Sequence record: OZ035800.1
From: Felixounavirus LF82P5
Direction: 5' to 3' (one strand)
DNA: 64,000 nt
Positions 4,301 through 58,115 of the stretch are shown here, in pieces. Numbering within the stretch: the stretch's first letter is position 1; each line of letters starts with the position of its first letter. The notes under the pieces are model-generated. The model did not search any database and was not told the DNA's origin. It worked only from the letters and a program-made list of their open reading frames with translations. The position numbers were made by a program, and so were the translations under genes.

Positions 4301-4600
4301 TTAATCTGCCAACCTTAAATTGAAATTAACACCAAATTTTTCACATACTTCCAACATATACTCAAGGGAGACGTTACCAGTGAGATGGATTATGTTGGAT
4401 ACACGAGCCTGAGAGATACCACAAATTTTAGCAACTTGCTCTTGAGAAAGTCCTCTGGATTTAATCTCTCTCTTAAAACGATGTGCAACGAAGTCTCTCA
4501 TTTCGTCTACATCCATTGGACAAATATAACTCTCCATTTCAGCCTCTCTGTCAGCCTCCCAATCATCTTGTGGAGCATAAGGGTCAAAAACCTCATTCAT
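4301..4600 (-). CDS. helix-turn-helix DNA-binding protein (XRE-like)
   Basis: HTH signature LSQEQVAKICGISQARVSNI; start moved to internal ATG with GGAAG Shine-Dalgarno (track start 4630 is TTG). Confidence 0.5.
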   Translation of the reverse strand: MNEVFDPYAPQDDWEADREAEMESYICPMDVDEMRDFVAHRFKREIKSRGLSQEQVAKICGISQARVSNIIHLTGNVSLEYMLEVCEKFGVNFNLRLAD

Positions 4601-4805
4601 CTTTCTTCTTCCGTTTGCGTGAAGTGTCAATCAATGAATCTATGTTTGTAGCCCTAACCTTTTCACGTTCATCATTGAGATAATCATCAAGAGCCTTCTC
4701 AATCTGTGAATCATCTTGACAGATGACTGTAAAGACTGTAAAGCCATCTGTATCATCAATTATATTACCATAACCGCTTCTGGGATGTAACTTTTTAAGA
4801 GCCAT
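4593..4805 (-). CDS. hypothetical protein
   Basis: 70-aa ORF with ATG start and basic C-terminus. Confidence 0.4.
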   Translation of the reverse strand: MALKKLHPRSGYGNIIDDTDGFTVFTVICQDDSQIEKALDDYLNDEREKVRATNIDSLIDTSRKRKKKDE

Positions 4806-5190: not shown

Positions 5191-5389
5191 AATGACCTCA
5201 AAGTTATATTAAATTTTGTATTACATTGAGTATAAAAATAAGCTATAACACCTGACTTGTCAACAGATTTTATAGCTTATTTGGCAGATTTTTTATAAGG
5301 CTACTGCCATCCTTCCATACTTTACCGAACATCACCCTACTGAACCCGACCCTACCTCACCCGACCCAACCGAACCGTACCGAGCACAG

Positions 5390-5468
5390 CCTTATTAAAA
5401 GACCCTCTTTAAAGACCTTTTAAAAAGGTAAGTCTCATTTTAATGTAGCTGAGACTAACTACCCATAC
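5390..5468. repeat. repeated intergenic element, copy A
   Basis: About 79 bp: CCTTATTAAAAGACCCTCTTTAAAGACCTTTTAAAAAGG plus hairpin AGTCTCA-12 nt-TGAGACT; near-identical copy at 6788-6866. Confidence 0.6.
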
Positions 5469-5527
5469 CTCACCTTACCACGCCGAACAGCACCGGACTA
5501 TACCAGACCATGCCGAACATTGCCGAG

Positions 5528-5566
5528 CCTTATTAAAAGACCCTCTTTAAAGACCTTTTAAAAAGG
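5528..5566. repeat. repeated intergenic element, partial copy B
   Basis: 39-bp quasi-palindromic core identical to the start of copy A. Confidence 0.55.
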
Positions 5567-5585
5567 AGCCTCCGAAGAGGCTACC
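5555..5585 (-). terminator. rho-independent terminator (minus strand)
   Basis: On the minus strand AGCCTC-UUCG-GAGGCT hairpin followed by a U5 run, immediately downstream of the 5594..6034 stop. Confidence 0.55.
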
Positions 5586-5593
5586 TAGTCAAC

Positions 5594-6787: not shown

Positions 6788-6866
6788 CCTTATTAAAAGA
6801 CCCTCTCCAAAGACCTTTTAAAAAGGTAAGTCTCATTTTAATGTAGCTGAGACTAACTACCCATAC
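6788..6866. repeat. repeated intergenic element, copy C
   Basis: Near-identical to 5390-5468 (one CC/TT difference); flanked by CA-rich tracts. Confidence 0.6.
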
Positions 6867-6994
6867 ATTACCGCACCATATTATACCCTACCCCACCATA
6901 CTTCACTGCACCGAGCCACGCATTACATCACTTAAAAACCCTTTTCAAAGACTCTTAAGTGATGCTGGTGAGTACCCGTTGGTTTATGATGCTC

Positions 6995-7022
6995 AGTATA
7001 CTCACCAAATTTCCTATGTCAA
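6995..7022 (-). promoter_or_regulatory. sigma70-like promoter (minus strand)
   Basis: Minus-strand TTGACA-16 nt-TATACT upstream of the 6037..6624 gene. Confidence 0.4.
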
Positions 7023-7178
7023 CAACTTTTATAAAAAAGTTCTGATAGCTATATGCGTCACGAAACAAAAGATTGTAAACAAGACACCCATTGCAAAAGA
7101 TGTGTCCAAAAGCTTACTTGCAACGTATGACAATACAAAGACAACCAGTATAAATAGAATGACTGTACTGAACATAGT

Positions 7179-9336: not shown

Positions 9337-9387
9337 AATCCCTCCTATACAAGATGTAGTATAAGGTACTCTTCCCTGAGCACCTTG

Positions 9388-9903
9388 TCAACTTAGTTTT
9401 GCAAACTCTCCGTGGAGTTTAATAGCAGCTTCACAGTAAGCTTTATGGGCTTCTTCTTCTGTTGTGTATGTTCCTATATGTATGGTCTTGCCATTATGGT
9501 TAATCTGGGCTATCCACTTACCAGACTTGCTTCTACTTGTGCCTTTTAAGTTTTTTGATGTTCTAGGTTGTCTCCTATTAGACATGTTCTGCTCTTTTGT
9601 GGCCTCTCTTAGATTGTCCCAAGCGTTATTCAAACCATCTCCATCTTTGTGGTCAATGTGTTTATCAGGCCACTTACCTGTCATCCAGAACCAAGCAATT
9701 CGGTGATTGCCTGTCCTGTATCCTAAAATCTGTGTGTGCATATACACACCAGACCTTGTGCGCTTAATTGCTCCGGCTTGGCTTCCAATAACCACCCTAC
9801 TACTATGTGGAGGTCTGCCAATCCATGTTAAGACCCCTGTTTCGGGGTCATAATCTAACCAAGACTTTAACTGTTCATGTGTGAATCCACAATCTCTCAT
9901 CAA
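9388..9903 (-). CDS. HNH homing endonuclease with AP2 DNA-binding domain
   Basis: HNH motif HIDHKDGDGLNNAWDNLREATKEQN; C-terminal AP2-like GKWIAQINHNGKTIHIGTYTTEEEA; 4-nt overlap with the polymerase gene. Confidence 0.8.
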   Translation of the reverse strand: MMRDCGFTHEQLKSWLDYDPETGVLTWIGRPPHSSRVVIGSQAGAIKRTRSGVYMHTQILGYRTGNHRIAWFWMTGKWPDKHIDHKDGDGLNNAWDNLREATKEQNMSNRRQPRTSKNLKGTSRSKSGKWIAQINHNGKTIHIGTYTTEEEAHKAYCEAAIKLHGEFAKLS

Positions 9904-12599: not shown

Positions 12600-12658
12600 T
12601 TTTACTCCCTCTAAAATCATTAACCTCATACATTACTGCAAAAAATTATAAAAAGCAA

Positions 12659-12683
12659 GTTGACAATGTACTTGACAAGGTGT
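12659..12683 (+). promoter_or_regulatory. conserved tandem-TTGACA module (candidate early promoter or operator)
   Basis: GTTGACAATGTACTTGACAAGGTGT; 24 of 25 nt identical to 56049-56073; both sit in divergent intergenic regions. Confidence 0.45.
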
Positions 12684-12857
12684 TAATCTTTGCGAAGTGG
12701 GTTTTTACTTAAAAGGTTACTTAACAGTTTAACTATACAGATACTTTAAAACTCTTAAAAGATTATTTAATAGCTTTTTAAAAAGCTTTAAAGTATAACG
12801 TATAGAATACGTTAAGATAAAAGATTAAAACTTAATAGTTACTTAAAAGAGGCTTAC

Positions 12858-13280
12858 ATGCAGAAAATGTTTGTTCACCCAGACATAGCTGACTTTGTTA
12901 GAGCTTTGCAGAAGTTGGAAGAACTTGACATTGCTGCTCAACGGGAATATGCTCACCATCACAGGAGAATGGTTGATATACAACATGAAATAGAGTTGTC
13001 TGAAGACTATGAAGATGACTTAAAATGCTCTGTATTTGAGCATATGAAAGATGTTGCTACAGCGAGACGTAAAGCTAAAGACACAGTTGCTTTACTAGAT
13101 TCTCTTAAAAAGAGGTTGCAAAGTGGTACAGACCTGTGTAATCTAGCATCACTGATTAACGATGTTGAAACTTCTTGGGATAGGCACTATTATCCACGTT
13201 CTGAAAAGACACTTGACTTTTCTTCATCCGAAAACTTAAAATGTTCTAGAAAGAAACTTAACCAACTGAGAGAGAAATAA
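12858..13280 (+). CDS. hypothetical protein
   Basis: 140-aa ORF, first gene of the plus-strand block. Confidence 0.5.
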   Translation: MQKMFVHPDIADFVRALQKLEELDIAAQREYAHHHRRMVDIQHEIELSEDYEDDLKCSVFEHMKDVATARRKAKDTVALLDSLKKRLQSGTDLCNLASLINDVETSWDRHYYPRSEKTLDFSSSENLKCSRKKLNQLREK

Positions 13281-42466: not shown

Positions 42467-42539
42467 GAAACTCTGTAGGATATTCACAATAGCCTAAGCC
42501 TTTCTTATCTGGTAAATTTTTCAGGTAAGGAGGGCTTTT

Positions 42540-42561
42540 TCATTTTAGAATTGTGCAGGTA
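42540..42561 (+). repeat. iteron-like direct repeat R1
   Basis: TCATTTTAGAATTGTGCAGGTA; identical to R4. Confidence 0.6.
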
Positions 42562-42612
42562 GAGTTCTGTAGAGAAATCTGTAGAGAGAATTTTGAACTC
42601 CAAAGAGAAAAT

Positions 42613-42634
42613 TCATTTTCAAACTGTGCAGGTA
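42613..42634 (+). repeat. iteron-like direct repeat R2
   Basis: TCATTTTCAAACTGTGCAGGTA. Confidence 0.6.
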
Positions 42635-42651
42635 ATCTCCAAAGAGCTTTT

Positions 42652-42673
42652 TCATTTTCAAAACGTGCAGACC
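42652..42673 (+). repeat. iteron-like direct repeat R3
   Basis: TCATTTTCAAAACGTGCAGACC. Confidence 0.55.
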
Positions 42674-42696
42674 CCGCTCAGGTCGGGCAAGAAAAA

Positions 42697-42718
42697 TCAT
42701 TTTAGAATTGTGCAGGTA
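42697..42718 (+). repeat. iteron-like direct repeat R4
   Basis: TCATTTTAGAATTGTGCAGGTA. Confidence 0.6.
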
Positions 42719-42733
42719 GGTTTTTATAGACAG

Positions 42734-42772
42734 CCAGCCCAACCCCTCTCCCCCTCTTACTCCCCCTCTCCC
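42734..42772 (+). other. polypyrimidine (C-rich) tract
   Basis: CCAGCCCAACCCCTCTCCCCCTCTTACTCCCCCTCTCCCC, strongly out of character for a roughly 39% GC genome. Confidence 0.6.
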
Positions 42773-42894
42773 CAAAAGTCAAGAGAAAAATTTGTAGCGG
42801 ATTGAAAAATAATTCTTGATTTGCGTTCTGTTTTGTGGTAGTCGTGCGCACCCGTTTCATTACAGTTTTGCCAAAAATATTTTTAAAATTTTTA

Positions 42895-42986
42895 TTGACT
42901 CTTTGAACGTGGTTATCTAATATTTACATCAACGGGGAGGGAATGACCTTCCCCACTAAATAAAATCCTAAACTGGAGATTCAAAA
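42895..42986 (+). promoter_or_regulatory. promoter-hairpin-RBS cassette, copy 1
   Basis: TTGACT-17 nt-TAATAT, then GGGGAGGGAATGACCTTCCCC hairpin, then ...CCTAAACTGGAGATTCAAAA-ATG. Confidence 0.6.
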
Positions 42987-43175
42987 ATGGCATCAAGAAA
43001 AATTAAAGTTGGCGATGAGGTTAACATTAAGCACGAATACTCTTACAAAATGCTAACTATACGCTCTTATAAGGTTTATCAGGTGGAAGCTATCCACAAA
43101 GATAATACTTTTTCCTTAAAAGGGTATAGCGAACGTTTCCCTGCTGAACTCTTTGAGAAATGGAGCGCGAAATAA
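42987..43175 (+). CDS. hypothetical small protein
   Basis: 62-aa ORF driven by cassette copy 1. Confidence 0.5.
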   Translation: MASRKIKVGDEVNIKHEYSYKMLTIRSYKVYQVEAIHKDNTFSLKGYSERFPAELFEKWSAK

Positions 43176-43381
43176 TGCTTTACAGTCGCGAATTGATGGT
43201 TACAACTAACGTTAACACAAAGGCAAAACGTTTTTACATGCAAATCTGTGGCGTATGGTCCAGAATATCAGAAGCTGACTATTGCAACTATGTAGAAACA
43301 GCTATAAACTCTAATTGCTACCTTACAAGAAATACTAAAAAATTTACGAGACAGACAGCAATTTACTACTACGATAAATAA
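43175..43381 (+). CDS. hypothetical small protein
   Basis: Start at ATG overlapping the upstream stop (TAATG); 68 aa. Confidence 0.4.
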   Translation: MLYSRELMVTTNVNTKAKRFYMQICGVWSRISEADYCNYVETAINSNCYLTRNTKKFTRQTAIYYYDK

Positions 43382-43395
43382 AAAGTACTTTACAA

Positions 43396-43424
43396 GGGGC
43401 TTATAGTTCGATAAAGTAAGCCCC
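43396..43424 (+). other. intergenic hairpin upstream of conserved leader
   Basis: GGGGCTTA-13 nt-TAAGCCCC then the conserved leader ...CCTTAAACTAGGAGATTCAAAA-ATG; no T run. Confidence 0.4.
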
Positions 43425-43467
43425 AGATAAAGAGCTTTACACAATCCTTAAACTAGGAGATTCAAAA

Positions 43468-44010
43468 ATGAAATGCTATCACGGAACTACTCAAGAAAAT
43501 TTCCTCAACCTGATTAATAACGGTGATAAACCATCAGGCGCATGGAATTGTTCGGATATGGACGGCAATTTTTACGTGTATCCAGAAAATAAAATCTATG
43601 GCGACGATGAGGAAGAAATAGCATCAGAGGGCATTCAGCAAGCTCTAGGCAATGCCACTATCACCGCAGCTTTTCAGATGAAGACTCAAAATATTGTTAT
43701 CTTAGAACTCGATATTCCAGAGGATGAGCTAAATGATGATTATTCTTGTGATAATATGTCGAGTGTAGCAAGTTTTACAGAGTACTTTGATGTAAATTGG
43801 ATTAAAAAGGTCTATACAACAGAGTTTAACGCTATGTATTCACCTTTTTGTCTTCCTTCATTGGATAACCCAAATTTAAACTATCTTGATGAGTCTCTGG
43901 AGCTTCTTGCTAAAAGTGTTCAACAGTCGGACAGTATTCAGGTTTATTGTGACATCATGGATACACTGACAGGAAACATTGCAGAAGAGGATTTAAAGAG
44001 CTTTTTCTAA
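43468..44010 (+). CDS. hypothetical protein
   Basis: 180-aa acidic ORF with conserved leader and RBS. Confidence 0.5.
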   Translation: MKCYHGTTQENFLNLINNGDKPSGAWNCSDMDGNFYVYPENKIYGDDEEEIASEGIQQALGNATITAAFQMKTQNIVILELDIPEDELNDDYSCDNMSSVASFTEYFDVNWIKKVYTTEFNAMYSPFCLPSLDNPNLNYLDESLELLAKSVQQSDSIQVYCDIMDTLTGNIAEEDLKSFF

Positions 44011-44041
44011 AAACCTATGCAATCACCTTATAAACACTAAT

Positions 44042-44062
44042 CAGCCCCTTGTAGGGGCTTTT
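44042..44062 (+). terminator. hairpin (weak terminator)
   Basis: AGCCCC-TTGTA-GGGGCT followed by TTT. Confidence 0.35.
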
Positions 44063-44076
44063 AGAGGGCTTAAATC

Positions 44077-44310
44077 ATGCTTACAACCATTTACCTCATC
44101 CTTTCCATCTGTAATGGTCATTCATGTGATTTTAAAGGGCTTGAAGAGTTTACAGGAAGTAAAGAAAATGCTATTCAAGTTTGCCAGATAGCAAGACAAG
44201 ACTATCCCGCTAGTGATGATATACAATGTTACTTTAAGACAGAAGATGAAGACGGTATCTATTTTGACAGCGTAGATGGTCAGTATGAAATTATCATTGA
44301 AAAAGACTAG
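44077..44310 (+). CDS. hypothetical small protein
   Basis: 77-aa ORF. Confidence 0.45.
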   Translation: MLTTIYLILSICNGHSCDFKGLEEFTGSKENAIQVCQIARQDYPASDDIQCYFKTEDEDGIYFDSVDGQYEIIIEKD

Positions 44311-44401
44311 ACAAGCCTGATAAAAATCTGTAAATTGTCAATCAACGGGGAGGGAATGACCTTCCCCACTAAGTACAATCCTTAAACTAGGAGATTCAAA
44401 A
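44308..44401 (+). promoter_or_regulatory. promoter-hairpin-RBS cassette, copy 2
   Basis: TAGACA-17 nt-TAAATT, the same GGGGAGGGAATGACCTTCCCC hairpin, AGGAG RBS; -35 overlaps the upstream stop codon. Confidence 0.55.
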
Positions 44402-44743
44402 ATGGCTTATGTAACCGTAATTACCGATAAAGAAAATTCATCTTGGTCAACTCAAGTAAGTGATAAGATGTCACCTATGCAGTGCCTAAAATACTTTGAA
44501 CAGTGGAACAAAGGCGAGGACACAAGCCCCTTTCAAGTGATGCAGATTATCCATGTAGATAACGAAGGGAATAAAACGGTTTTAAATAGTGAGTACTACG
44601 CAAGCCGTTTTGAAACGAGAAGTAAAACAATGAAGCTTTTACGTGAATCCGGTTATGCCCATATCGCCGCGTTAATCTGGGATGACCTGCTAAAAAACCA
44701 ACGTATCAGCTATGTAAAACCTGAAAAAATATTCATCAGTTAA
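44402..44743 (+). CDS. hypothetical protein
   Basis: 113-aa ORF driven by cassette copy 2. Confidence 0.5.
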   Translation: MAYVTVITDKENSSWSTQVSDKMSPMQCLKYFEQWNKGEDTSPFQVMQIIHVDNEGNKTVLNSEYYASRFETRSKTMKLLRESGYAHIAALIWDDLLKNQRISYVKPEKIFIS

Positions 44744-44774
44744 TCAATAACTTACAAAAAACTTTTAAAAAAAT

Positions 44775-44796
44775 GTTGACAATACCCCTTGACATT
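44775..44796 (+). promoter_or_regulatory. tandem TTGACA module (third copy, divergent)
   Basis: GTTGACAATACCCCTTGACATT; same tandem -35-like architecture as 12659 and 56049. Confidence 0.35.
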
Positions 44797-44872
44797 GGTA
44801 ACTTTGTTCGAGGGGGTTTATCTAAAAGGGATTCACTTAAAAGATTCTTTATAGATAAGCTCAAAAAATTAC

Positions 44873-44966
44873 TTGCAATCAGCTATCAAAACAAGTAAAT
44901 TACTAATCAACGGGGAGGGAATGAACTTCCCCACTAAACAAAGCCCTTAAACTAGGAGATTCTAAA
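44873..44966 (+). promoter_or_regulatory. promoter-hairpin-RBS cassette, copy 3
   Basis: TTGCAA-17 nt-TAAATT, hairpin GGGGAGGGAATGAACTTCCCC, AGGAG RBS. Confidence 0.55.
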
Positions 44967-45497
44967 ATGAACAAGTTCAAAGCTATCAACTACATCCGTT
45001 CAAATGCTGTAATGTCTAAGCCTGTAAAAGATACATACGAATTTCGTTGTAATGGGGTACACTTTGCAACCATCACTAAGTCAGAAAACGGGGCTTATTA
45101 TGTACATCGTCGTAATGTTGCAACCGTTGTAGTCTCTCACTTTATGCAAGCTGTAGCGGAATTATTACCGTTATTCTTAGAGATTTACTTAAATGAGTGT
45201 AAAAACGTTCACAACCACGTTAAAAACCTTTTAAACGGTTATAAAATGGCTTATGAACGCTCTATCAAGTCACTAAACAAGTTTTACAATGCACCTGCAA
45301 ATACTGTTTCAATGGCTTATGATGTAAACGGTGAGTTAGTTAGTCTCTTTAAAGTGGAAGAGATTAAACTGTATAATTTACGTCCTAGTGGTTACTCTAA
45401 GACTCTTGGTGAAGGTTTAACGTTCAATATCAAGAACTTAGAAAAAACTTTAAAAGATATTGAAAAAGATATTGACGAGACACTTAAAAGTCTGTAA
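44967..45497 (+). CDS. hypothetical protein
   Basis: 176-aa ORF driven by cassette copy 3. Confidence 0.5.
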   Translation: MNKFKAINYIRSNAVMSKPVKDTYEFRCNGVHFATITKSENGAYYVHRRNVATVVVSHFMQAVAELLPLFLEIYLNECKNVHNHVKNLLNGYKMAYERSIKSLNKFYNAPANTVSMAYDVNGELVSLFKVEEIKLYNLRPSGYSKTLGEGLTFNIKNLEKTLKDIEKDIDETLKSL

Positions 45498-45563
45498 ATT
45501 GTCAATCAACGGGGAGGGAATGACCTTCCCCACTAAATAAAGTCCTAAACTGGAGTTATCAAG
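45472..45563 (+). promoter_or_regulatory. promoter-hairpin-RBS cassette, copy 4
   Basis: TTGACG-17 nt-TAAATT where TAA is the stop codon of the upstream gene; same hairpin; GGAG RBS. Confidence 0.6.
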
Positions 45564-45827
45564 ATGGAAAACGTAGAATTAACCACACTTTTACAAATTG
45601 CAACCGACAAAGAAAACGTAGCTTTATTTCACCGCATCGAAAGTGATTTGTTCAATGGTGAAATCATCAAAGAGTCTTACGAGGTTGTTGGATTCAAAGA
45701 TGGTAAAACATTTGGATTCTTTGACCTCGAAAAAGGCAACGCTGTTACAAAATATGATGTTTTATCTTGTGAGATTCTTACAAAATACAACGAAAAAAGG
45801 CTTGCAACATACGCTAATATGCAGTAA
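45564..45827 (+). CDS. hypothetical small protein
   Basis: 87-aa ORF driven by cassette copy 4. Confidence 0.5.
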   Translation: MENVELTTLLQIATDKENVALFHRIESDLFNGEIIKESYEVVGFKDGKTFGFFDLEKGNAVTKYDVLSCEILTKYNEKRLATYANMQ

Positions 45828-45893
45828 ATTACTAATCAACGGGAGGCGATAACCTCCCCACTAAATAAAACCCTTAAACTAGGAGATTCAAAA
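45802..45893 (+). promoter_or_regulatory. promoter-hairpin-RBS cassette, copy 5
   Basis: TTGCAA-17 nt-TAAATT (TAA is the upstream stop), variant hairpin GGGAGGCGATAACCTCCCC, AGGAG RBS. Confidence 0.55.
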
Positions 45894-46142
45894 ATGGCAA
45901 CTATCCGCGCTACTGTTAACGAGTTCGGTTTTTCCTCTCTGGATGTTAAATTTGACATTGCAGGCACTGATAACGCCTTTGAAATGGTGAAAGGTCTTAT
46001 CAGTCAGACCATCAAAGACTATAATCCTTCTGATGAGTTCTGGAAAGAAACAAAACAGGAAGTTCTCAAAGAGGGTTATTCTTATCACTATTGGGGTGAA
46101 AAAATTGTCTCTCTGTACTACGACAAAGAAGGCACTAACTAA
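45894..46142 (+). CDS. hypothetical small protein
   Basis: 82-aa ORF driven by cassette copy 5. Confidence 0.5.
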   Translation: MATIRATVNEFGFSSLDVKFDIAGTDNAFEMVKGLISQTIKDYNPSDEFWKETKQEVLKEGYSYHYWGEKIVSLYYDKEGTN

Positions 46143-46182
46143 ACGCCGCAGCGGGGCTAAATAGCCCCAGATACCTTTATAC

Positions 46183-46204
46183 AGCCCCTCATAGGGGCTT
46201 TTTT
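46183..46204 (+). terminator. rho-independent terminator
   Basis: AGCCCC-TCAT-AGGGGCT followed by TTTTTT; preceded by a second hairpin GGGGCT-AAAT-AGCCCC. Confidence 0.7.
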
Positions 46205-46205
46205 A

Positions 46206-47801
46206 CGTCTATCCAATCCTTATACAATCCCTTTCCCTTTCCTTTCCAGAATCTTATCAGACCTTAAAAACAATAACTCTATAGTCTACTCTATAACCCT
46301 TTATCAAATCAACTTAAATATAAGCCCATAACCCGAAAGGGAAGGGCAACCATTAAAACGCTCTATAAAGCTCTATAACAGCCTTATCAACCTAACTTAA
46401 GGGATTGCATTAACCTATCTTAAAAAGCTCTTTACAGGGCTTTATAGAGCCTTAAAAGAATCTTATAAGGGTGTAAGCTTTATCATCTCGTTAGCTATCT
46501 TGTGAATAACTAAAAAGGGCTATGAGATAGGAATCTATCGAATCCTATTGATAGTGTCTAAAAAGTATGTTATAGGGGCTATAAAGTTACTTTGAAGTAG
46601 CTTAAAAGTTACGTAAATGCTAGCCCCCTTAACATTCTCTTAACAAATTCTTAACAATCCCTACATAGTTATGCTTGTTAGCAACTTGTTAGCCCCTTGT
46701 TAAATCTCTGTTAAGACCACGTAAAAGCCTTGTAAGAGCCTTTGACATAGCCTTAAAAGCTCCTGTAAAGCCCTATAAAGAGCTTTCTTCATAGTTGGGG
46801 TGTAATTACTAGGAAGAGCCTTAAAAGAGCTTACAAGGAGCTATAGAGAGCTTTTAAGAGGTATGTTTAAAGAGTCACTAAGAGGGAAAGGGAACGATAA
46901 GAAAAGAGATAGTGACCATGTTAATAGCTTGTTAAAAAGATTAAATACTTGTTAGAAACTTGTTAATTATCTTAACAAAATAACTCTTTAAAATTAACTT
47001 GTTAGCTCTTGTTAGTCATCTGTTAAGCCTCTGTAAAGACTATTCAGCAACTGTTAAGAAACTGTTACAGCCTTGTTAGTTCTGTTAAGAATCTGTTAAG
47101 ACCTTTGAAGAGCTGTTAAGAAGATGTGAGAACTGTTAAGAGATTGTTAAGGATATTTTAAAATTTTGCAAAGTACTTGTAAGGGAGCTGTTAAGGGCTA
47201 CCAAGCAGATATACATCTTCTACAGATATTTTTGAGTTCCTTCAAAGACCCTAAAAAATGACTTGACAGTCCTATTTTATAAAAATTTTAAGATTCTGAA
47301 TAATTACCTATACAGTCTTTTAAAAATACAGGTAGAAACAGGTTTATAAGATACCTTGTTAGTACCGTGTTAGACCTTGTGAGATAAGGTCTGTAAAGAT
47401 ATTCCTGTTAAGTTTGTTAAAACAGTCTATATAGAGGCTTAGTAATACCTAGTGAACACCTATAGAGAGTGTCATAGCTTACATAGAGATTAAGAGGTGT
47501 ATAGGAGCTTCTAAGAGTGTGTAGAGAGATGGTTAAGATGATTGTATAGGTTGTTTAGAAGGCTTGTTAGAAGAGTGTTTAGATGGCTATTTAGAAGGGC
47601 TATACAGAGGGCTATTAAGACCACTAGATAGTTGCTAAGATACTATATAGTACTATATAACTATATAGAGAGTAAGATTAAGAAGGTTGTTAAGAAGGGT
47701 AGATATTTTGTTCACATATGATGGTGACCCAGAGGTTGGGACAACCGATAAAATTTTATAAAAATTAAAAAGCCCCCAATTAAGGAGGCTCTTAAGATAT
47801 T
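46206..47801. other. 1.6-kb repeat-dense region with no ORF of 60 codons or more
   Basis: No track ORF on either strand; dense short direct and inverted repeats (CTGTTAAG, CTTGTTAG, AGCCTTAAAAG, CTATAAAGAGC, TTTAGAAGG, ACTATATA). Confidence 0.6.
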
Positions 47802-55971: not shown

Positions 55972-56048
55972 GGCAGACCTACAGCTTTAAGTAAGATGGT
56001 ACAGTAATCCATACAACAAGTCAAGAACTATTGCAAGTTAAAAAAGTT

Positions 56049-56073
56049 GTTGACAAAGTACTTGACAAGGTGT
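56049..56073 (+). promoter_or_regulatory. conserved tandem-TTGACA module (second copy)
   Basis: GTTGACAAAGTACTTGACAAGGTGT; downstream shares ACTTAAAAGGTT with the 12659 copy; TATAAATA at about 56079. Confidence 0.45.
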
Positions 56074-56199
56074 AGGCTTATAAATACTTAGAAGATAACT
56101 TAAAAGGTTCCTCTAAAAAGGCTATTTAAACAGATATCTTTCTGGATATCTATCTTTTATCTTAAAAGCCTTTTAAGAGGTCTTATAAGAGGCATACCA

Positions 56200-56571
56200 A
56201 TGAAAAACAGAACAAACAAAGGCCAGTTTAAAAAAGGCCAGTCTGGAAACCCATCTGGAAGACCGAAAGGCTCTCGTAACAAAAGCTCACTCGTAAAAGC
56301 TCAACTGACCATTGATAATTCTGCTGAGTTTGCTGCAAAGTTGTTTGAGGCAATTGTTACAAGGGACGCTGCTAAGCTTGCAGAGTTCGGTTTAAACACA
56401 GATGACGTAACCATCAAGAGCATGATTGAGGTCGGTAAAACTATCTTTACTCACTCAGCAGGTGAGATGAAGGCACTTGCAGCAGACACTAAGAAGACTC
56501 CTGATAATGGTGGTCAACAACAGACAGATAACAAACCAACGTTCTCTGCTGTAGCGACTCTCAAAAAATAA
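56200..56571 (+). CDS. hypothetical protein with GNPSGRPKG motif
   Basis: 123 aa; N-terminal basic KGQFKKGQSGNPSGRPKGSRNK. Confidence 0.45.
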   Translation: MKNRTNKGQFKKGQSGNPSGRPKGSRNKSSLVKAQLTIDNSAEFAAKLFEAIVTRDAAKLAEFGLNTDDVTIKSMIEVGKTIFTHSAGEMKALAADTKKTPDNGGQQQTDNKPTFSAVATLKK

Positions 56572-58068: not shown

Positions 58069-58086
58069 AAAGTTTTAAAAAGGGTA

Positions 58087-58115
58087 TTGACAATGTGTTT
58101 GATACCCTTTAATAT
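58087..58115 (+). promoter_or_regulatory. sigma70-like promoter for the tRNA array
   Basis: TTGACA-17 nt-TAATAT; the -35 is embedded in the inverted repeat AGGGTAT...ATACCCT. Confidence 0.55.

What the first reader, a model, noticed from the sequence alone, without database searches (positions are those of the whole stretch)
12655..12715. Conserved tandem-TTGACA module at two divergent intergenic regions
GTTGACAA(T/A)GTACTTGACAAGGTGT is 24 of 25 nt identical at 12659-12683 and 56049-56073, with a shared downstream ACTTAAAAGGTT box; a looser third copy is at 44775-44796. Both full copies sit where minus- and plus-strand gene blocks diverge. Neither has a strong -10 at canonical spacing, so this may be a tandem operator or a phage-specific promoter and not a plain sigma70 promoter.
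Basis: seen in the sequence. Interest (0 to 1): 0.5.

Follow-up and report, generated by a model that had tools for sequence, protein, structure and literature searches.

The report
Twin TTGACA phage early promoters
Three promoters of a Felix O1-type phage carry a second, strictly conserved copy of the host polymerase's "-35" recognition word inside the promoter spacer; they are most likely ordinary host-polymerase promoters with an extra, unexplained control site.

Summary
The window is a Felixounavirus. GTTGACAA(T/A)GTACTTGACAAGGTGT sits at 12659-12683 and 56049-56073 (24/25 identical; no such repeat in 20 surrogate sequences). A looser copy lies at 44775-44799.

All three face rightward. 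The two full copies sit where gene blocks diverge.

Every copy, in three genera, has TAnnnT 17-18 bp after the FIRST TTGACA, preceded by TGn at two of the three sites and by an A-rich UP-like tract. In that register the sites rank in the top 0.04% of sigma70 scores in the window. In the second register they are unremarkable.

The best reading is therefore host sigma70 promoters heading the main rightward transcription units.

The second TTGACA, 12-13 bp downstream and inside the spacer, is unusual. Flank-anchored scans show both hexamers essentially invariant across Felixounavirus, Suspvirus and Mooglevirus, while the 3-5 bases between them vary freely. Its role is unknown. It could be a regulator site, a second sigma region 4 site, or a twin promoter.

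The ACTTAAAAGG box belongs to a separate family of CTWWAWAG boxes. They fill the leaders and a 1.66 kb non-coding stretch.

No transcript-start data were found in the searched literature. Verdict: a new variant of a known kind, of moderate interest.

The parts
12640..12654 (+). S1 A-rich UP-like tract (AAAAAATTATAAAAA) just upstream of hexamer 1
   Evidence: CAAAAAGCAAG is kept in Suspvirus and Mooglevirus. The UP-element consensus is recalled from memory.
12660..12665 (+). S1 hexamer 1, TTGACA, the inferred -35
   Evidence: Invariant in 8 distinct variants across 33 loci found by a flank-anchored scan.
12672..12677 (+). S1 hexamer 2, TTGACA, inside the spacer (about -24 to -19). Function unknown.
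   Evidence: Invariant while the 3-4 nt between the hexamers vary: TGT, TGC, TTC, ATC, AGC, ACT, TAC. The register-2 promoter score is unremarkable.
12681..12689 (+). S1 extended -10, TGT+TAATCT, 18 bp after hexamer 1
   Evidence: Mooglevirus has TGT/TGG+TAGTCT, so TGnTAnnnT is kept.
12695..12697 (+). S1 predicted transcription start (inferred only), followed by GTGGGTTTTT
   Evidence: Inferred from -10 geometry. CGAAGTGGGTTTT is conserved. A similar start region occurs at S3.
12707..12849 (+). S1 leader. It holds the ACTTAAAAGGTT box (12707-12718) and an array of about 9 CTWWAWAG boxes spaced 10-13 nt apart, up to the ribosome-binding site of the ORF at 12858.
   Evidence: Boxes drift within the consensus across genera (CTTAAAAG to CTTAATAG; CTTAACAG to CTTTACAG or CTTTATAG).
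12630..12658 (-). Candidate leftward (DNA polymerase) promoter, TTGCTT-N17-TAATGT, back to back with hexamer 1
   Evidence: Read by eye on the alignment. Mooglevirus has TAGGGT and a divergent spacer. The score is weak (below the threshold used). Tentative.
56040..56045 (+). S2 A-tract upstream of hexamer 1
56050..56055 (+). S2 hexamer 1, TTGACA, the inferred -35. This is P41 of the Felix O1 paper.
56062..56067 (+). S2 hexamer 2, TTGACA, in the spacer
   Evidence: Invariant in 9 Felix-like variants, while the inter-hexamer bases are free: AAGTAC, AAGGAC, AAGCAC, AATGAC, TTCCTC, AGGGGA.
56073..56078 (+). S2 -10, TAGGCT, 17 bp after hexamer 1
   Evidence: TAGGCT, TAGCCT and TAGTGT across lineages, so TAGnnT is kept and the inner bases are free.
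56083..56088 (+). S2 possible second -10, AATACT, 15 bp after hexamer 2 (candidate overlapping promoter, seen at S2 only)
   Evidence: SUSP2 has AACACT at 16 bp.
56098..56190 (+). S2 leader, with the ACTTAAAAGGTT box (56098-56109), further CTWWAWAG boxes and a short hairpin (AGATATC/GATATCT)
55996..56024 (-). Leftward partner promoter of S2, TTGACT-N17-TACCAT, with TTGCAA 12 bp upstream (56031-56036)
   Evidence: Invariant in three genera.
44755..44773 (+). S3 UP-like tract, CAAAAAACTTTTAAAAAAA
44776..44781 (+). S3 hexamer 1, TTGACA (TTGACG in Suspvirus EP1)
44789..44794 (+). S3 hexamer 2, TTGACA, 13 bp after hexamer 1
   Evidence: Kept in EP1, Maleficent and Sf13.
44796..44804 (+). S3 extended -10, TGG+TAACTT, 17 bp after hexamer 1
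   Evidence: Mooglevirus has TGTTAACTT; EP1 has TACATT.
44810..44854 (+). S3 start region GAGGGGGTTTA and boxes TCTAAAAG, CTTAAAAG and CTTTATAG

Best explanation
S1, S2 and S3 are promoters read by the host sigma70 RNA polymerase. They head the two large rightward transcription units (S1: replication and nucleotide-metabolism genes; S2: DUF5681, a Ro-like protein, the tRNA cluster and then structural genes) and a small-gene cluster (S3).

The FIRST TTGACA is the -35. An A-rich tract upstream acts as an UP-like element. A weak -10 of the form TAnnnT lies 17-18 bp downstream, with TGn (extended -10) at S1 and S3. Transcription is inferred to start about 7 nt after the -10 and to run into a 110-160 nt leader full of CTWWAWAG boxes.

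The SECOND TTGACA lies in the spacer, 4-6 bp upstream of the -10. It is a separately selected element. Because exactly the -35 consensus word is conserved, I think it is read either by sigma70 region 4 in an alternative docking register or by a phage protein with that specificity. Either way it would tune or switch these promoters, which depend on the -35 and have a poor -10.

Shown: the sequence anatomy, its conservation pattern, and its position at the heads of operons. Inferred: polymerase use, the start sites, the timing, and any role for hexamer 2.
For: The window is a Felixounavirus.

Register-1 scores rank 33rd, 47th and 17th of 127,936 positions for S1, S2 and S3. Register-2 scores rank beyond 1,000th.

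The phylogenetic footprint fits a sigma70 promoter. In Felixounavirus, Suspvirus and Mooglevirus both hexamers are essentially invariant; the single change is TTGACG in hexamer 1 of S3 in EP1. T-12, A-11 and T-7 of the -10 are kept while its inner bases change (TAATCT/TAGTCT; TAGGCT/TAGCCT/TAGTGT; TAACTT/TACATT). The 3-5 nt between the hexamers vary freely.

A-tracts abut hexamer 1, not hexamer 2.

Erwinia phage phiEa21-4 carries an independent tandem, TTGACA-N6-TTGACA-N5-TAAAGT. Its -10 is again 17 bp from hexamer 1, and GGGTTTTCTCTTAA follows, resembling S1 and S3.

GenBank records AYO145A and ASO1A annotate S1 and S2 as consensus-predicted promoters. The Felix O1 paper lists the S2 homologue as P41 and states that the phage encodes no RNA polymerase.

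ORF22, downstream of S3 in Felix O1, peaked at 5 min in RT-PCR.
Against: No transcript-start, footprint or RNA-seq data for any Felix O1-like phage turned up in the searchable literature.

The -10 hexamers match the consensus at only 3 of 6 positions. At S2 the TG sits one base too close to the hexamer to count as a canonical extended -10.

A plain promoter model does not explain why hexamer 2 is conserved.

In Kolesnikvirus the S1 and S2 equivalents use a single -35 that aligns with hexamer 2, not hexamer 1.

Felix O1 ORFs 41, 42 and 97-99 peaked at 25 min, not 5 min, in end-point RT-PCR. 'Early' is therefore not established for S1 and S2.

My scoring matrix and the UP-element consensus come from memory.
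Confidence: 0.6

Rival explanations
1. The module is a tandem operator. The two TTGACAA words are half-sites for a phage-encoded DNA-binding protein, either the HTH_3 protein at 4301-4630 or one of the many unknown small early proteins. This protein binds over the -35 and spacer of the three promoters and shuts them off (or activates them) at a set time. The doubled site lets it tell these promoters from single -35 promoters.
For: Hexamer 2 is conserved with no -10 of its own at S1 and S3. Only these promoters pair a doubled hexamer with a weak -10, whereas single-hexamer promoters in the window have strong -10s such as TAGAAT, TATAGT and TATACT. The phage encodes an Xre-type regulator. The Felix O1 paper says temporal control is unexplained.
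Against: The conserved core is exactly the 6-7 nt of the -35 consensus, with no wider footprint. It is a direct repeat, not the dyad usual for HTH_3 proteins. The spacing is 12 bp at S1 and S2 but 13 bp at S3, and the distance to the -10 varies from 4 to 6 bp. No protein has been linked to it. Pfam scans of 40 proteins and PHROGs scans of 10 (overlapping) proteins found no other regulator.
Confidence: 0.2
2. These are twin overlapping sigma70 promoters. Each TTGACA is the -35 of its own promoter, giving two start sites 10-12 nt apart. Alternatively, the downstream register is a non-productive polymerase docking site that modulates firing of the upstream one.
For: At S2, hexamer 2 is followed at 15 bp by AATACT (AACACT at 16 bp in SUSP2). 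In Erwinia phages the hexamer aligned with hexamer 2 is the working -35, as TTGACA-N17-TACATT and TTTACA-N17-TGcTACACT. What is conserved is exactly the -35 word.
Against: At S1 and S3 nothing resembling a -10 lies 15-19 bp after hexamer 2 (AAGTGG, GGGGGT). Register-2 scores are at background level. A 15 bp spacer is poor.
Confidence: 0.12
3. Hexamer 2 is an alternative landing site for sigma region 4 on a remodelled polymerase, or a loading site for an antiterminator. A phage factor would detach region 4 from its normal geometry, as lambda Q does at PR', where a second TTGACT is used. Polymerase leaving these promoters could then read through the many terminators of the long operons.
For: The modules head long operons that contain many intrinsic terminators, and how these are read through is an open question in the Felix O1 paper. 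The second word is a -35 word placed close to the -10. The box-rich leaders are specific to these promoters. The lambda PR' analogy is recalled from memory.
Against: No -10-like pause element lies in the first 25 transcribed nucleotides. No Q-, N-, AsiA- or MotA-like protein was recognised. The geometry differs from lambda PR'. There is no experimental support.
Confidence: 0.05
4. The second hexamer is an inert relic of a 12 bp duplication or of an ancestral promoter, and the S1/S2 similarity reflects shared ancestry.
For: The module reads as two 12 bp units, TTGACAAnGTnn twice. Kolesnikvirus uses the downstream hexamer.
Against: Both hexamers are essentially invariant across three genera, while the bases between them and beside them change. 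S1 and S2 differ in those free positions within each genome, so this is not gene conversion.
Confidence: 0.03

Closest known systems
Strong sigma70 early promoters of virulent coliphages (the -35/-10 class with an UP element, such as T5 and T7 A-type early promoters) and E. coli rrn P1
   Same: A consensus TTGACA -35, an A/T-rich upstream tract, a 17-18 bp spacer, TAnnnT at the -10, a position at the head of an operon, and a phage with no RNA polymerase of its own.
   Different: The -10 is weak (3/6), and a second, perfectly conserved TTGACA lies in the spacer. I found no description of such a spacer element. One literature query and my own recall turned up nothing.
Extended -10 (TGnTATAAT) promoters
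   Same: S1 (TGTTAATCT) and S3 (TGGTAACTT) carry TG at -15/-14, and it is conserved in Mooglevirus.
   Different: S2 has TG directly abutting the hexamer (TGTAGGCT). All three sites also have a consensus -35, which extended -10 promoters do not need.
Lambda PR' and the Q antiterminator (a second TTGACT used by sigma region 4 in the paused complex)
   Same: A phage promoter with a second -35-like word downstream of the true -35, heading a long operon interrupted by terminators.
   Different: In lambda the second word lies after the -10, 1 bp before a -10-like pause element in the transcribed region. Here it lies in the spacer and no pause element is seen. No Q homologue was recognised.
Direct-repeat activator sites overlapping the -35 region: the PhoB pho box (CTGTCAT twice, 11 bp period) and lambda CII (TTGC-N6-TTGC)
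   Same: Two short direct repeats about one helical turn apart at or near the -35. The bottom strand of the module reads TTGTCAA twice, sharing the TGTCA core of the pho box.
   Different: The period is 12-13 bp rather than 10-11. The orientation is wrong for the rightward promoter. At S1 the leftward TATAAT that would fit a pho-box geometry is not conserved in Suspvirus or Mooglevirus.
T4 middle promoters (MotA box at -30 plus a sigma70 -10)
   Same: A TAnnnT -10, often with TGn, plus a second conserved upstream word, in a phage that relies on the host polymerase.
   Different: A canonical -35 is present, whereas T4 middle promoters lack one. The extra word is TTGACA centred near -20, not TGCTTtA at -30. 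No MotA or AsiA homologue was recognised.

Membership tests
sigma70 -35/-10 promoter | -35 hexamer close to TTGACA | tested here: met
   6/6 at S1, S2 and S3. Essentially invariant in three genera.
sigma70 -35/-10 promoter | -10 hexamer with A-11 and T-7, 16-18 bp downstream of the -35 | tested here: met
   TAATCT at 18 bp, TAGGCT at 17 bp, TAACTT at 17 bp. TAnnnT is conserved while the inner bases drift. The match is weak (3/6).
sigma70 -35/-10 promoter | Transcription initiates there with the sigma70 holoenzyme | not testable with these tools
   No start-site or RNA-seq study of a Felix O1-like phage was found. Only end-point RT-PCR per ORF exists.
UP-element promoter | A/T-rich tract at about -40 to -60 | tested here: met
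   AAAAAATTATAAAAA, AAAAAA and AAAAAACTTTTAAAAAAA lie directly upstream of hexamer 1. The consensus is recalled from memory.
Extended -10 promoter | TG at -15/-14 | tested here: inconclusive
   Met at S1 and S3 and in their Mooglevirus homologues. Not met at S2 or at S3 of EP1.
Dyad operator of an HTH_3 (Xre/Cro) repressor | Inverted repeat of about 14-20 bp | tested here: not met
   The module is a direct repeat. Only a 9 bp palindrome, CTTGACAAG, is present, and it is broken in S3 and in Mooglevirus S2.
Dyad operator of an HTH_3 (Xre/Cro) repressor | Binding by the phage HTH protein | not testable with these tools
   The protein exists, but there are no binding data.
Lambda Q-type promoter-proximal antitermination site | -10-like pause element in the initial transcribed region next to a -35-like word, plus a Q protein | tested here: not met
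   No TAnnnT or AAnnnT lies within about +1 to +25 at S1 or S3 (reading). No Q family hit among 40 proteins scanned against Pfam. About 59 predicted proteins in the window were not scanned.
Pho box | Two CTGTCAT repeats with 11 bp periodicity, 10 bp upstream of a -10 | tested here: not met
   The period is 12-13 bp. The leftward TATAAT at 12650-12645 is not conserved.
T4-type late promoter (TATAAATA) | Conserved TATAAATA at -10 | tested here: not met
   TATAAATA at 56079-56086 becomes TCTAAATA, AATAAATA or AATAAAAC in relatives.

The most novel reading that the evidence does not exclude
The second TTGACA is a switch element. A so far unrecognised Felix O1-type factor would use it to turn the three master promoters off or on, or to load read-through competence. 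That factor could be a small protein that remodels sigma70 region 4, or a DNA-binding protein with -35 specificity. This would be the missing temporal control of a phage family that encodes no RNA polymerase, sigma factor or known anti-sigma. The CTWWAWAG box arrays in the leaders and in the 1.66 kb non-coding region would belong to the same circuit.
Probability: 0.15. Interest if true: 0.65.

Novelty: new variant of a known kind. Interest (0 to 1): 0.38.

Why it matters
Felix O1-type phages are classic Salmonella typing phages and widely used biocontrol and therapy phages. How they time their transcription is still unknown. The 2010 genome paper says so explicitly, and it found no promoter in the DNA polymerase intergenic region where S1 lies.

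This analysis assigns likely promoters to the heads of the main rightward units. It also defines a small, sharply conserved extra element (hexamer 2) and a box family that are simple to mutate. That makes the timing question directly testable.

For promoter biology, a -35 word kept under selection inside a spacer would be an unusual natural design.

Tried and rejected
1. An IMG/VR scan for TTGACA-N6-TTGACAAGG gave about 120 hits. Outside Felix-like contigs they are coding (VDKxLDKV-type) or chance. L126, which looked related, is a T4-like cyanophage contig.

2. A scan for the Erwinia upstream word ATGGTGA was run with an 8 nt gap where 7 was needed. It returned only chance hits, so that scan was wasted.

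3. Hexamer 2 as the -35 fails for S1 and S3, because no -10 follows it.

4. The bottom-strand TTGTCA words as the -35 for the leftward DNA polymerase promoter fail. The spacers to TATAAT are 10 and 22 bp, and that TATAAT is not conserved.

5. The T4-late-like TATAAATA at S2 is not conserved.

6. The site at 58087, TTGACAATGTGTTTGATA, looked like a fourth tandem. Its second word is TTAATA in Felix O1 and forms the 3' arm of terminator t42/t43, so I treat it as coincidental.

7. Rfam finds only tRNAs in the window and nothing in the leaders.

8. No E. coli genome contains the module.

9. PDB sequence search and PHROGs gave no function for the first genes downstream of S1 and S3.

10. CRP, FNR, Fis, sigma32, sigma54, MerR-type, P2 Ogr-type and DnaA consensus sequences were compared by eye from memory. 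None fitted.

11. Literature searches for start-site or RNA-seq data on Felix O1-like phages, and for '-35-like elements in spacers', gave nothing useful.

Full report
WHAT THE WINDOW IS. A 3 kb piece around the first site is 100% identical to Felixounavirus LF82P5 and 90-99% identical to more than 200 Felix O1-like phages of E. coli, Salmonella, Shigella and Citrobacter. The window has the four-block layout described for Felix O1: a minus block ending with the DNA polymerase gene (about 1.7-12.6 kb), a plus block (12.9-46.1 kb), a minus block (47.8-55.95 kb), and a plus block that starts with a DUF5681 gene, a Ro-like gene and 27 tRNA genes.

CHECK OF THE OBSERVATION. S1 is GTTGACAATGTACTTGACAAGGTGT at 12659-12683. 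S2 is GTTGACAAAGTACTTGACAAGGTGT at 56049-56073, 24/25 identical. ACTTAAAAGGTT follows 23 and 24 nt later. S3 is GTTGACAATACCCCTTGACATTGGT at 44775-44799, with hexamers 13 bp apart rather than 12.

A 25-mer repeated at >=24/25 never arose in 20 first-order Markov surrogates of the window. Exact tandem TTGACA pairs occur only at these three places. S1 and S2 do lie where gene blocks diverge. S3 lies inside the plus block, upstream of the homologue of Felix O1 ORF22.

ANATOMY. Each site shares four features.
- An A-rich tract ends 2-5 nt before the first hexamer.
- The first hexamer is a perfect TTGACA.
- The second TTGACA starts 12 or 13 bp later.
- TAnnnT lies 17-18 bp after the FIRST hexamer: TGT-TAATCT at S1, TAGGCT at S2, TGG-TAACTT at S3.

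I scored both registers with a rough sigma70 matrix built from frequencies I recalled from memory. The hexamer 1 register ranks 33rd, 47th and 17th of 127,936 positions in the window. The hexamer 2 register ranks beyond 1,000th, and at S1 and S3 nothing resembling a -10 follows it (AAGTGG, GGGGGT). It overlooks that the three decisive -10 positions are in place at canonical spacing, with TGn at two sites.

COMPARATIVE FOOTPRINT. I aligned the S1 and S2 intergenic regions from Felixounavirus, Suspvirus and Mooglevirus. I then scanned IMG/VR with patterns anchored only in the flanks, so the module itself was unconstrained.
- S1, 8 distinct variants in 33 loci. Both hexamers never change. All module variation falls in the 3-4 nt between them (TGT, TGC, TTC, ATC, AGC, ACT, TAC). 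The -10 varies only inside (TAATCT/TAGTCT), and TGn is kept (TGT/TGG).
- S2, 9 Felix-like variants. Both hexamers never change. The inter-hexamer bases are free (AAGTAC, AAGGAC, AAGCAC, AATGAC, TTCCTC, AGGGGA). The -10 is TAGGCT, TAGCCT or TAGTGT.
- S3. TTGACA (TTGACG in EP1), 13 bp spacing, a second TTGACA, and TAACTT or TACATT.

Within one genome S1 and S2 differ at the free positions. The similarity is therefore maintained by selection, not by gene conversion. This is the pattern expected of a sigma70 promoter whose -35 is hexamer 1. In addition, hexamer 2 is itself under purifying selection.

MORE DISTANT RELATIVES. In Erwinia phages (Kolesnikvirus) the S1 and S2 equivalents have a single -35 that aligns with hexamer 2 and has its own -10: TTGACA-N17-TACATT and TTTACA-N17-TGcTACACT. 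Only a degenerate word (GTGAAA, ATGAAA, GTGATC) sits 12-13 bp upstream.

Yet phiEa21-4 has a perfect tandem elsewhere, CCCTTGACATTCTACTTGACAGGGGCTAAAGT, at the left edge of its non-coding box region. Its -10 (TAAAGT) is again 17 bp from hexamer 1. GGGTTTTCTCTTAA follows, closely resembling the start regions of S1 (GGGTTTTTACTTAA) and S3 (GGGGGTTTATCTAA). The tandem design is thus a recurring promoter form in the subfamily, not an accident of one locus.

WHAT IS ALREADY KNOWN. The Felix O1 genome paper (PMC3185647) lists the S2 homologue as P41 (TTGACA-N15-TATAGG). It states that no other promoter was found in the 40-41 or 96-97 intergenic regions; the latter is where S1 lies. It notes that the phage has no RNA polymerase and no recognised modifier of host polymerase. 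It also says that read-through of the many terminators and the temporal regulation are unexplained.

Two GenBank records (AYO145A, ASO1A) mark S1 and S2 as consensus-predicted promoters. I found no start-site or RNA-seq study of this phage group. The only expression data are end-point RT-PCRs per ORF. ORF22 (after S3) peaks at 5 min. ORFs 41, 42 and 97-99 (after S2 and S1) peak at 25 min. Nobody appears to have described the tandem hexamer or its conservation.

MECHANISM. I commit to host sigma70 promoters with hexamer 1 as the -35 (confidence about 0.6).

The role of hexamer 2 is open. Three facts constrain it.
- What is conserved is exactly the -35 word, with no wider footprint.
- Its distance to hexamer 1 (12 or 13 bp) and to the -10 (4-6 bp) is not rigid.
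- It accompanies weak -10s, whereas single-hexamer promoters in the window have strong ones (TAGAAT, TATAGT, TATACT).

These facts fit a reader with sigma region 4-like specificity acting on promoters that depend on the -35.

At S2 alone a second promoter is plausible, because AATACT lies 15 bp after hexamer 2. The only regulator-like protein found among 40 proteins scanned against Pfam and 10 (overlapping) proteins scanned against PHROGs is the HTH_3 protein at 4301-4630. Nothing ties it to the module.

THE DOWNSTREAM BOX. CTTAAAAG occurs 28 times against 5.3 expected. It is one member of a degenerate family, CTWWAWAG: CTTAACAG, CTAACAAG, CTTTACAG, CTTTATAG and others. The family is enriched 5- to 40-fold in intergenic DNA.

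The boxes form arrays spaced 10-13 nt apart in the leaders after S1, S2 and S3, and they pack the 1.66 kb non-coding stretch at 46143-47801. They are co-oriented with local transcription. They drift within the consensus across genera and persist in the Erwinia phage leaders and array.

In the S1 leader RNAalifold pairs box 2 (CUUAAC) with GUUAAG 90 nt downstream, with two compensatory pairs. The energies are weak, though.

The shared ACTTAAAAGGTT is therefore part of a second, independent system, not part of the promoter core. Its function is unknown. A resemblance to boxA or nut sequences is only a lead from memory.

DIVERGENT PARTNERS. At S2 a conserved leftward promoter, TTGACT-N17-TACCAT, lies 26 bp from hexamer 1. 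At S1 no good leftward sigma70 promoter exists. The best candidate is TTGCTT-N17-TAATGT (TAGGGT in Mooglevirus), back to back with hexamer 1. It is tentative.

VERDICT. The feature is real and conserved. It is best explained as a known kind of element, a host-polymerase phage promoter. It carries one new and unexplained feature, a selected second -35 word in the spacer, and it sits beside a separate box system. Interest is moderate.

Noticed in passing
46143-47801: A 1.66 kb non-coding stretch between the convergent plus and minus blocks is packed with dozens of 8-mer boxes (CTTAACAG x9, CTAACAAG x8, CTTTACAG, CTTTATAG, CTTAAAAG, CTTTTAAG). They are spaced about 11-13 bp apart and nearly all point in the minus orientation. 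Erwinia phage phiEa21-4 has an equivalent region (L284 2473-3660), whose left half uses a different box (TTCTAAG/A) and is preceded by a tandem TTGACA promoter. Function unknown.
   Followed up: partly
5191-5593 and 6837-7028 (minus block): Repeat families D1, D6 and D9. On the plus strand they are about 60 nt runs of ACC/CCG-rich 5-6 nt periodic sequence, followed by CCTTATTAAAAGACCCTCTTTAAAGACCTTTTAAAAAGG. Four copies in two pairs.
   Followed up: no
42907-45896: A repeated cassette, ATCAACGGGGAGGGAATGACCTTCCCCACTAAA (hairpin) plus CCTTAAACTAGGAGATTCAAAAATG (ribosome-binding site and start), precedes four or five small genes. This looks like a duplicated translation-initiation or processing module.
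   Followed up: no
42467-42986: Three tandem repeats of about 40 nt (CTCCAAAGAG..TTCATTTTCAAACTGTGCAG) and a C-rich tract lie in a 520 bp non-coding gap.
   Followed up: no
12799-12817: The hairpin AACGTAT-AGA-ATACGTT in the S1 leader becomes TATGTAT-AAC-ATACATA in Mooglevirus, with two compensatory pairs. The same columns can instead pair with box 2 (12720-12725), so two alternative structures are possible.
   Followed up: partly
12600-12660 (minus strand): No conserved good sigma70 promoter is present for the DNA polymerase gene block. The perfect TATAAT at 12650-12645 has no -35 at a usable distance and is not conserved in Suspvirus or Mooglevirus.
   Followed up: partly
56200-56571: The first gene after S2 is a DUF5681 protein with an N-terminal GNPSGRPKG motif. 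From memory, this motif resembles small terminase-like proteins, and Felix O1 is reported to lack an identified small terminase. Not tested.
   Followed up: no
58084-58109: A bidirectional terminator hairpin (t42/t43 of Felix O1) contains a full promoter, TTGACA-N17-TAATAT. Terminator and promoter overlap just upstream of the tRNA cluster.
   Followed up: partly
1-60 and 44560-45160 versus OZ035761.1: The window is not collinear with LF82P5 throughout. Its first 60 nt are not at the expected place in that record, and the S3 region matches at only 98.5% with an insertion. The source is therefore a close relative or a mosaic, not that exact record.
   Followed up: no
9380-9404 (minus strand): TTGCAA-N7-TTGACAAGGTG-N12-TACCTT lies at the 3' end of an HNH/AP2 homing-endonuclease gene. 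It shares the TTGACAAGGTG word with S1 and S2, but here the downstream hexamer has the -10.
   Followed up: no
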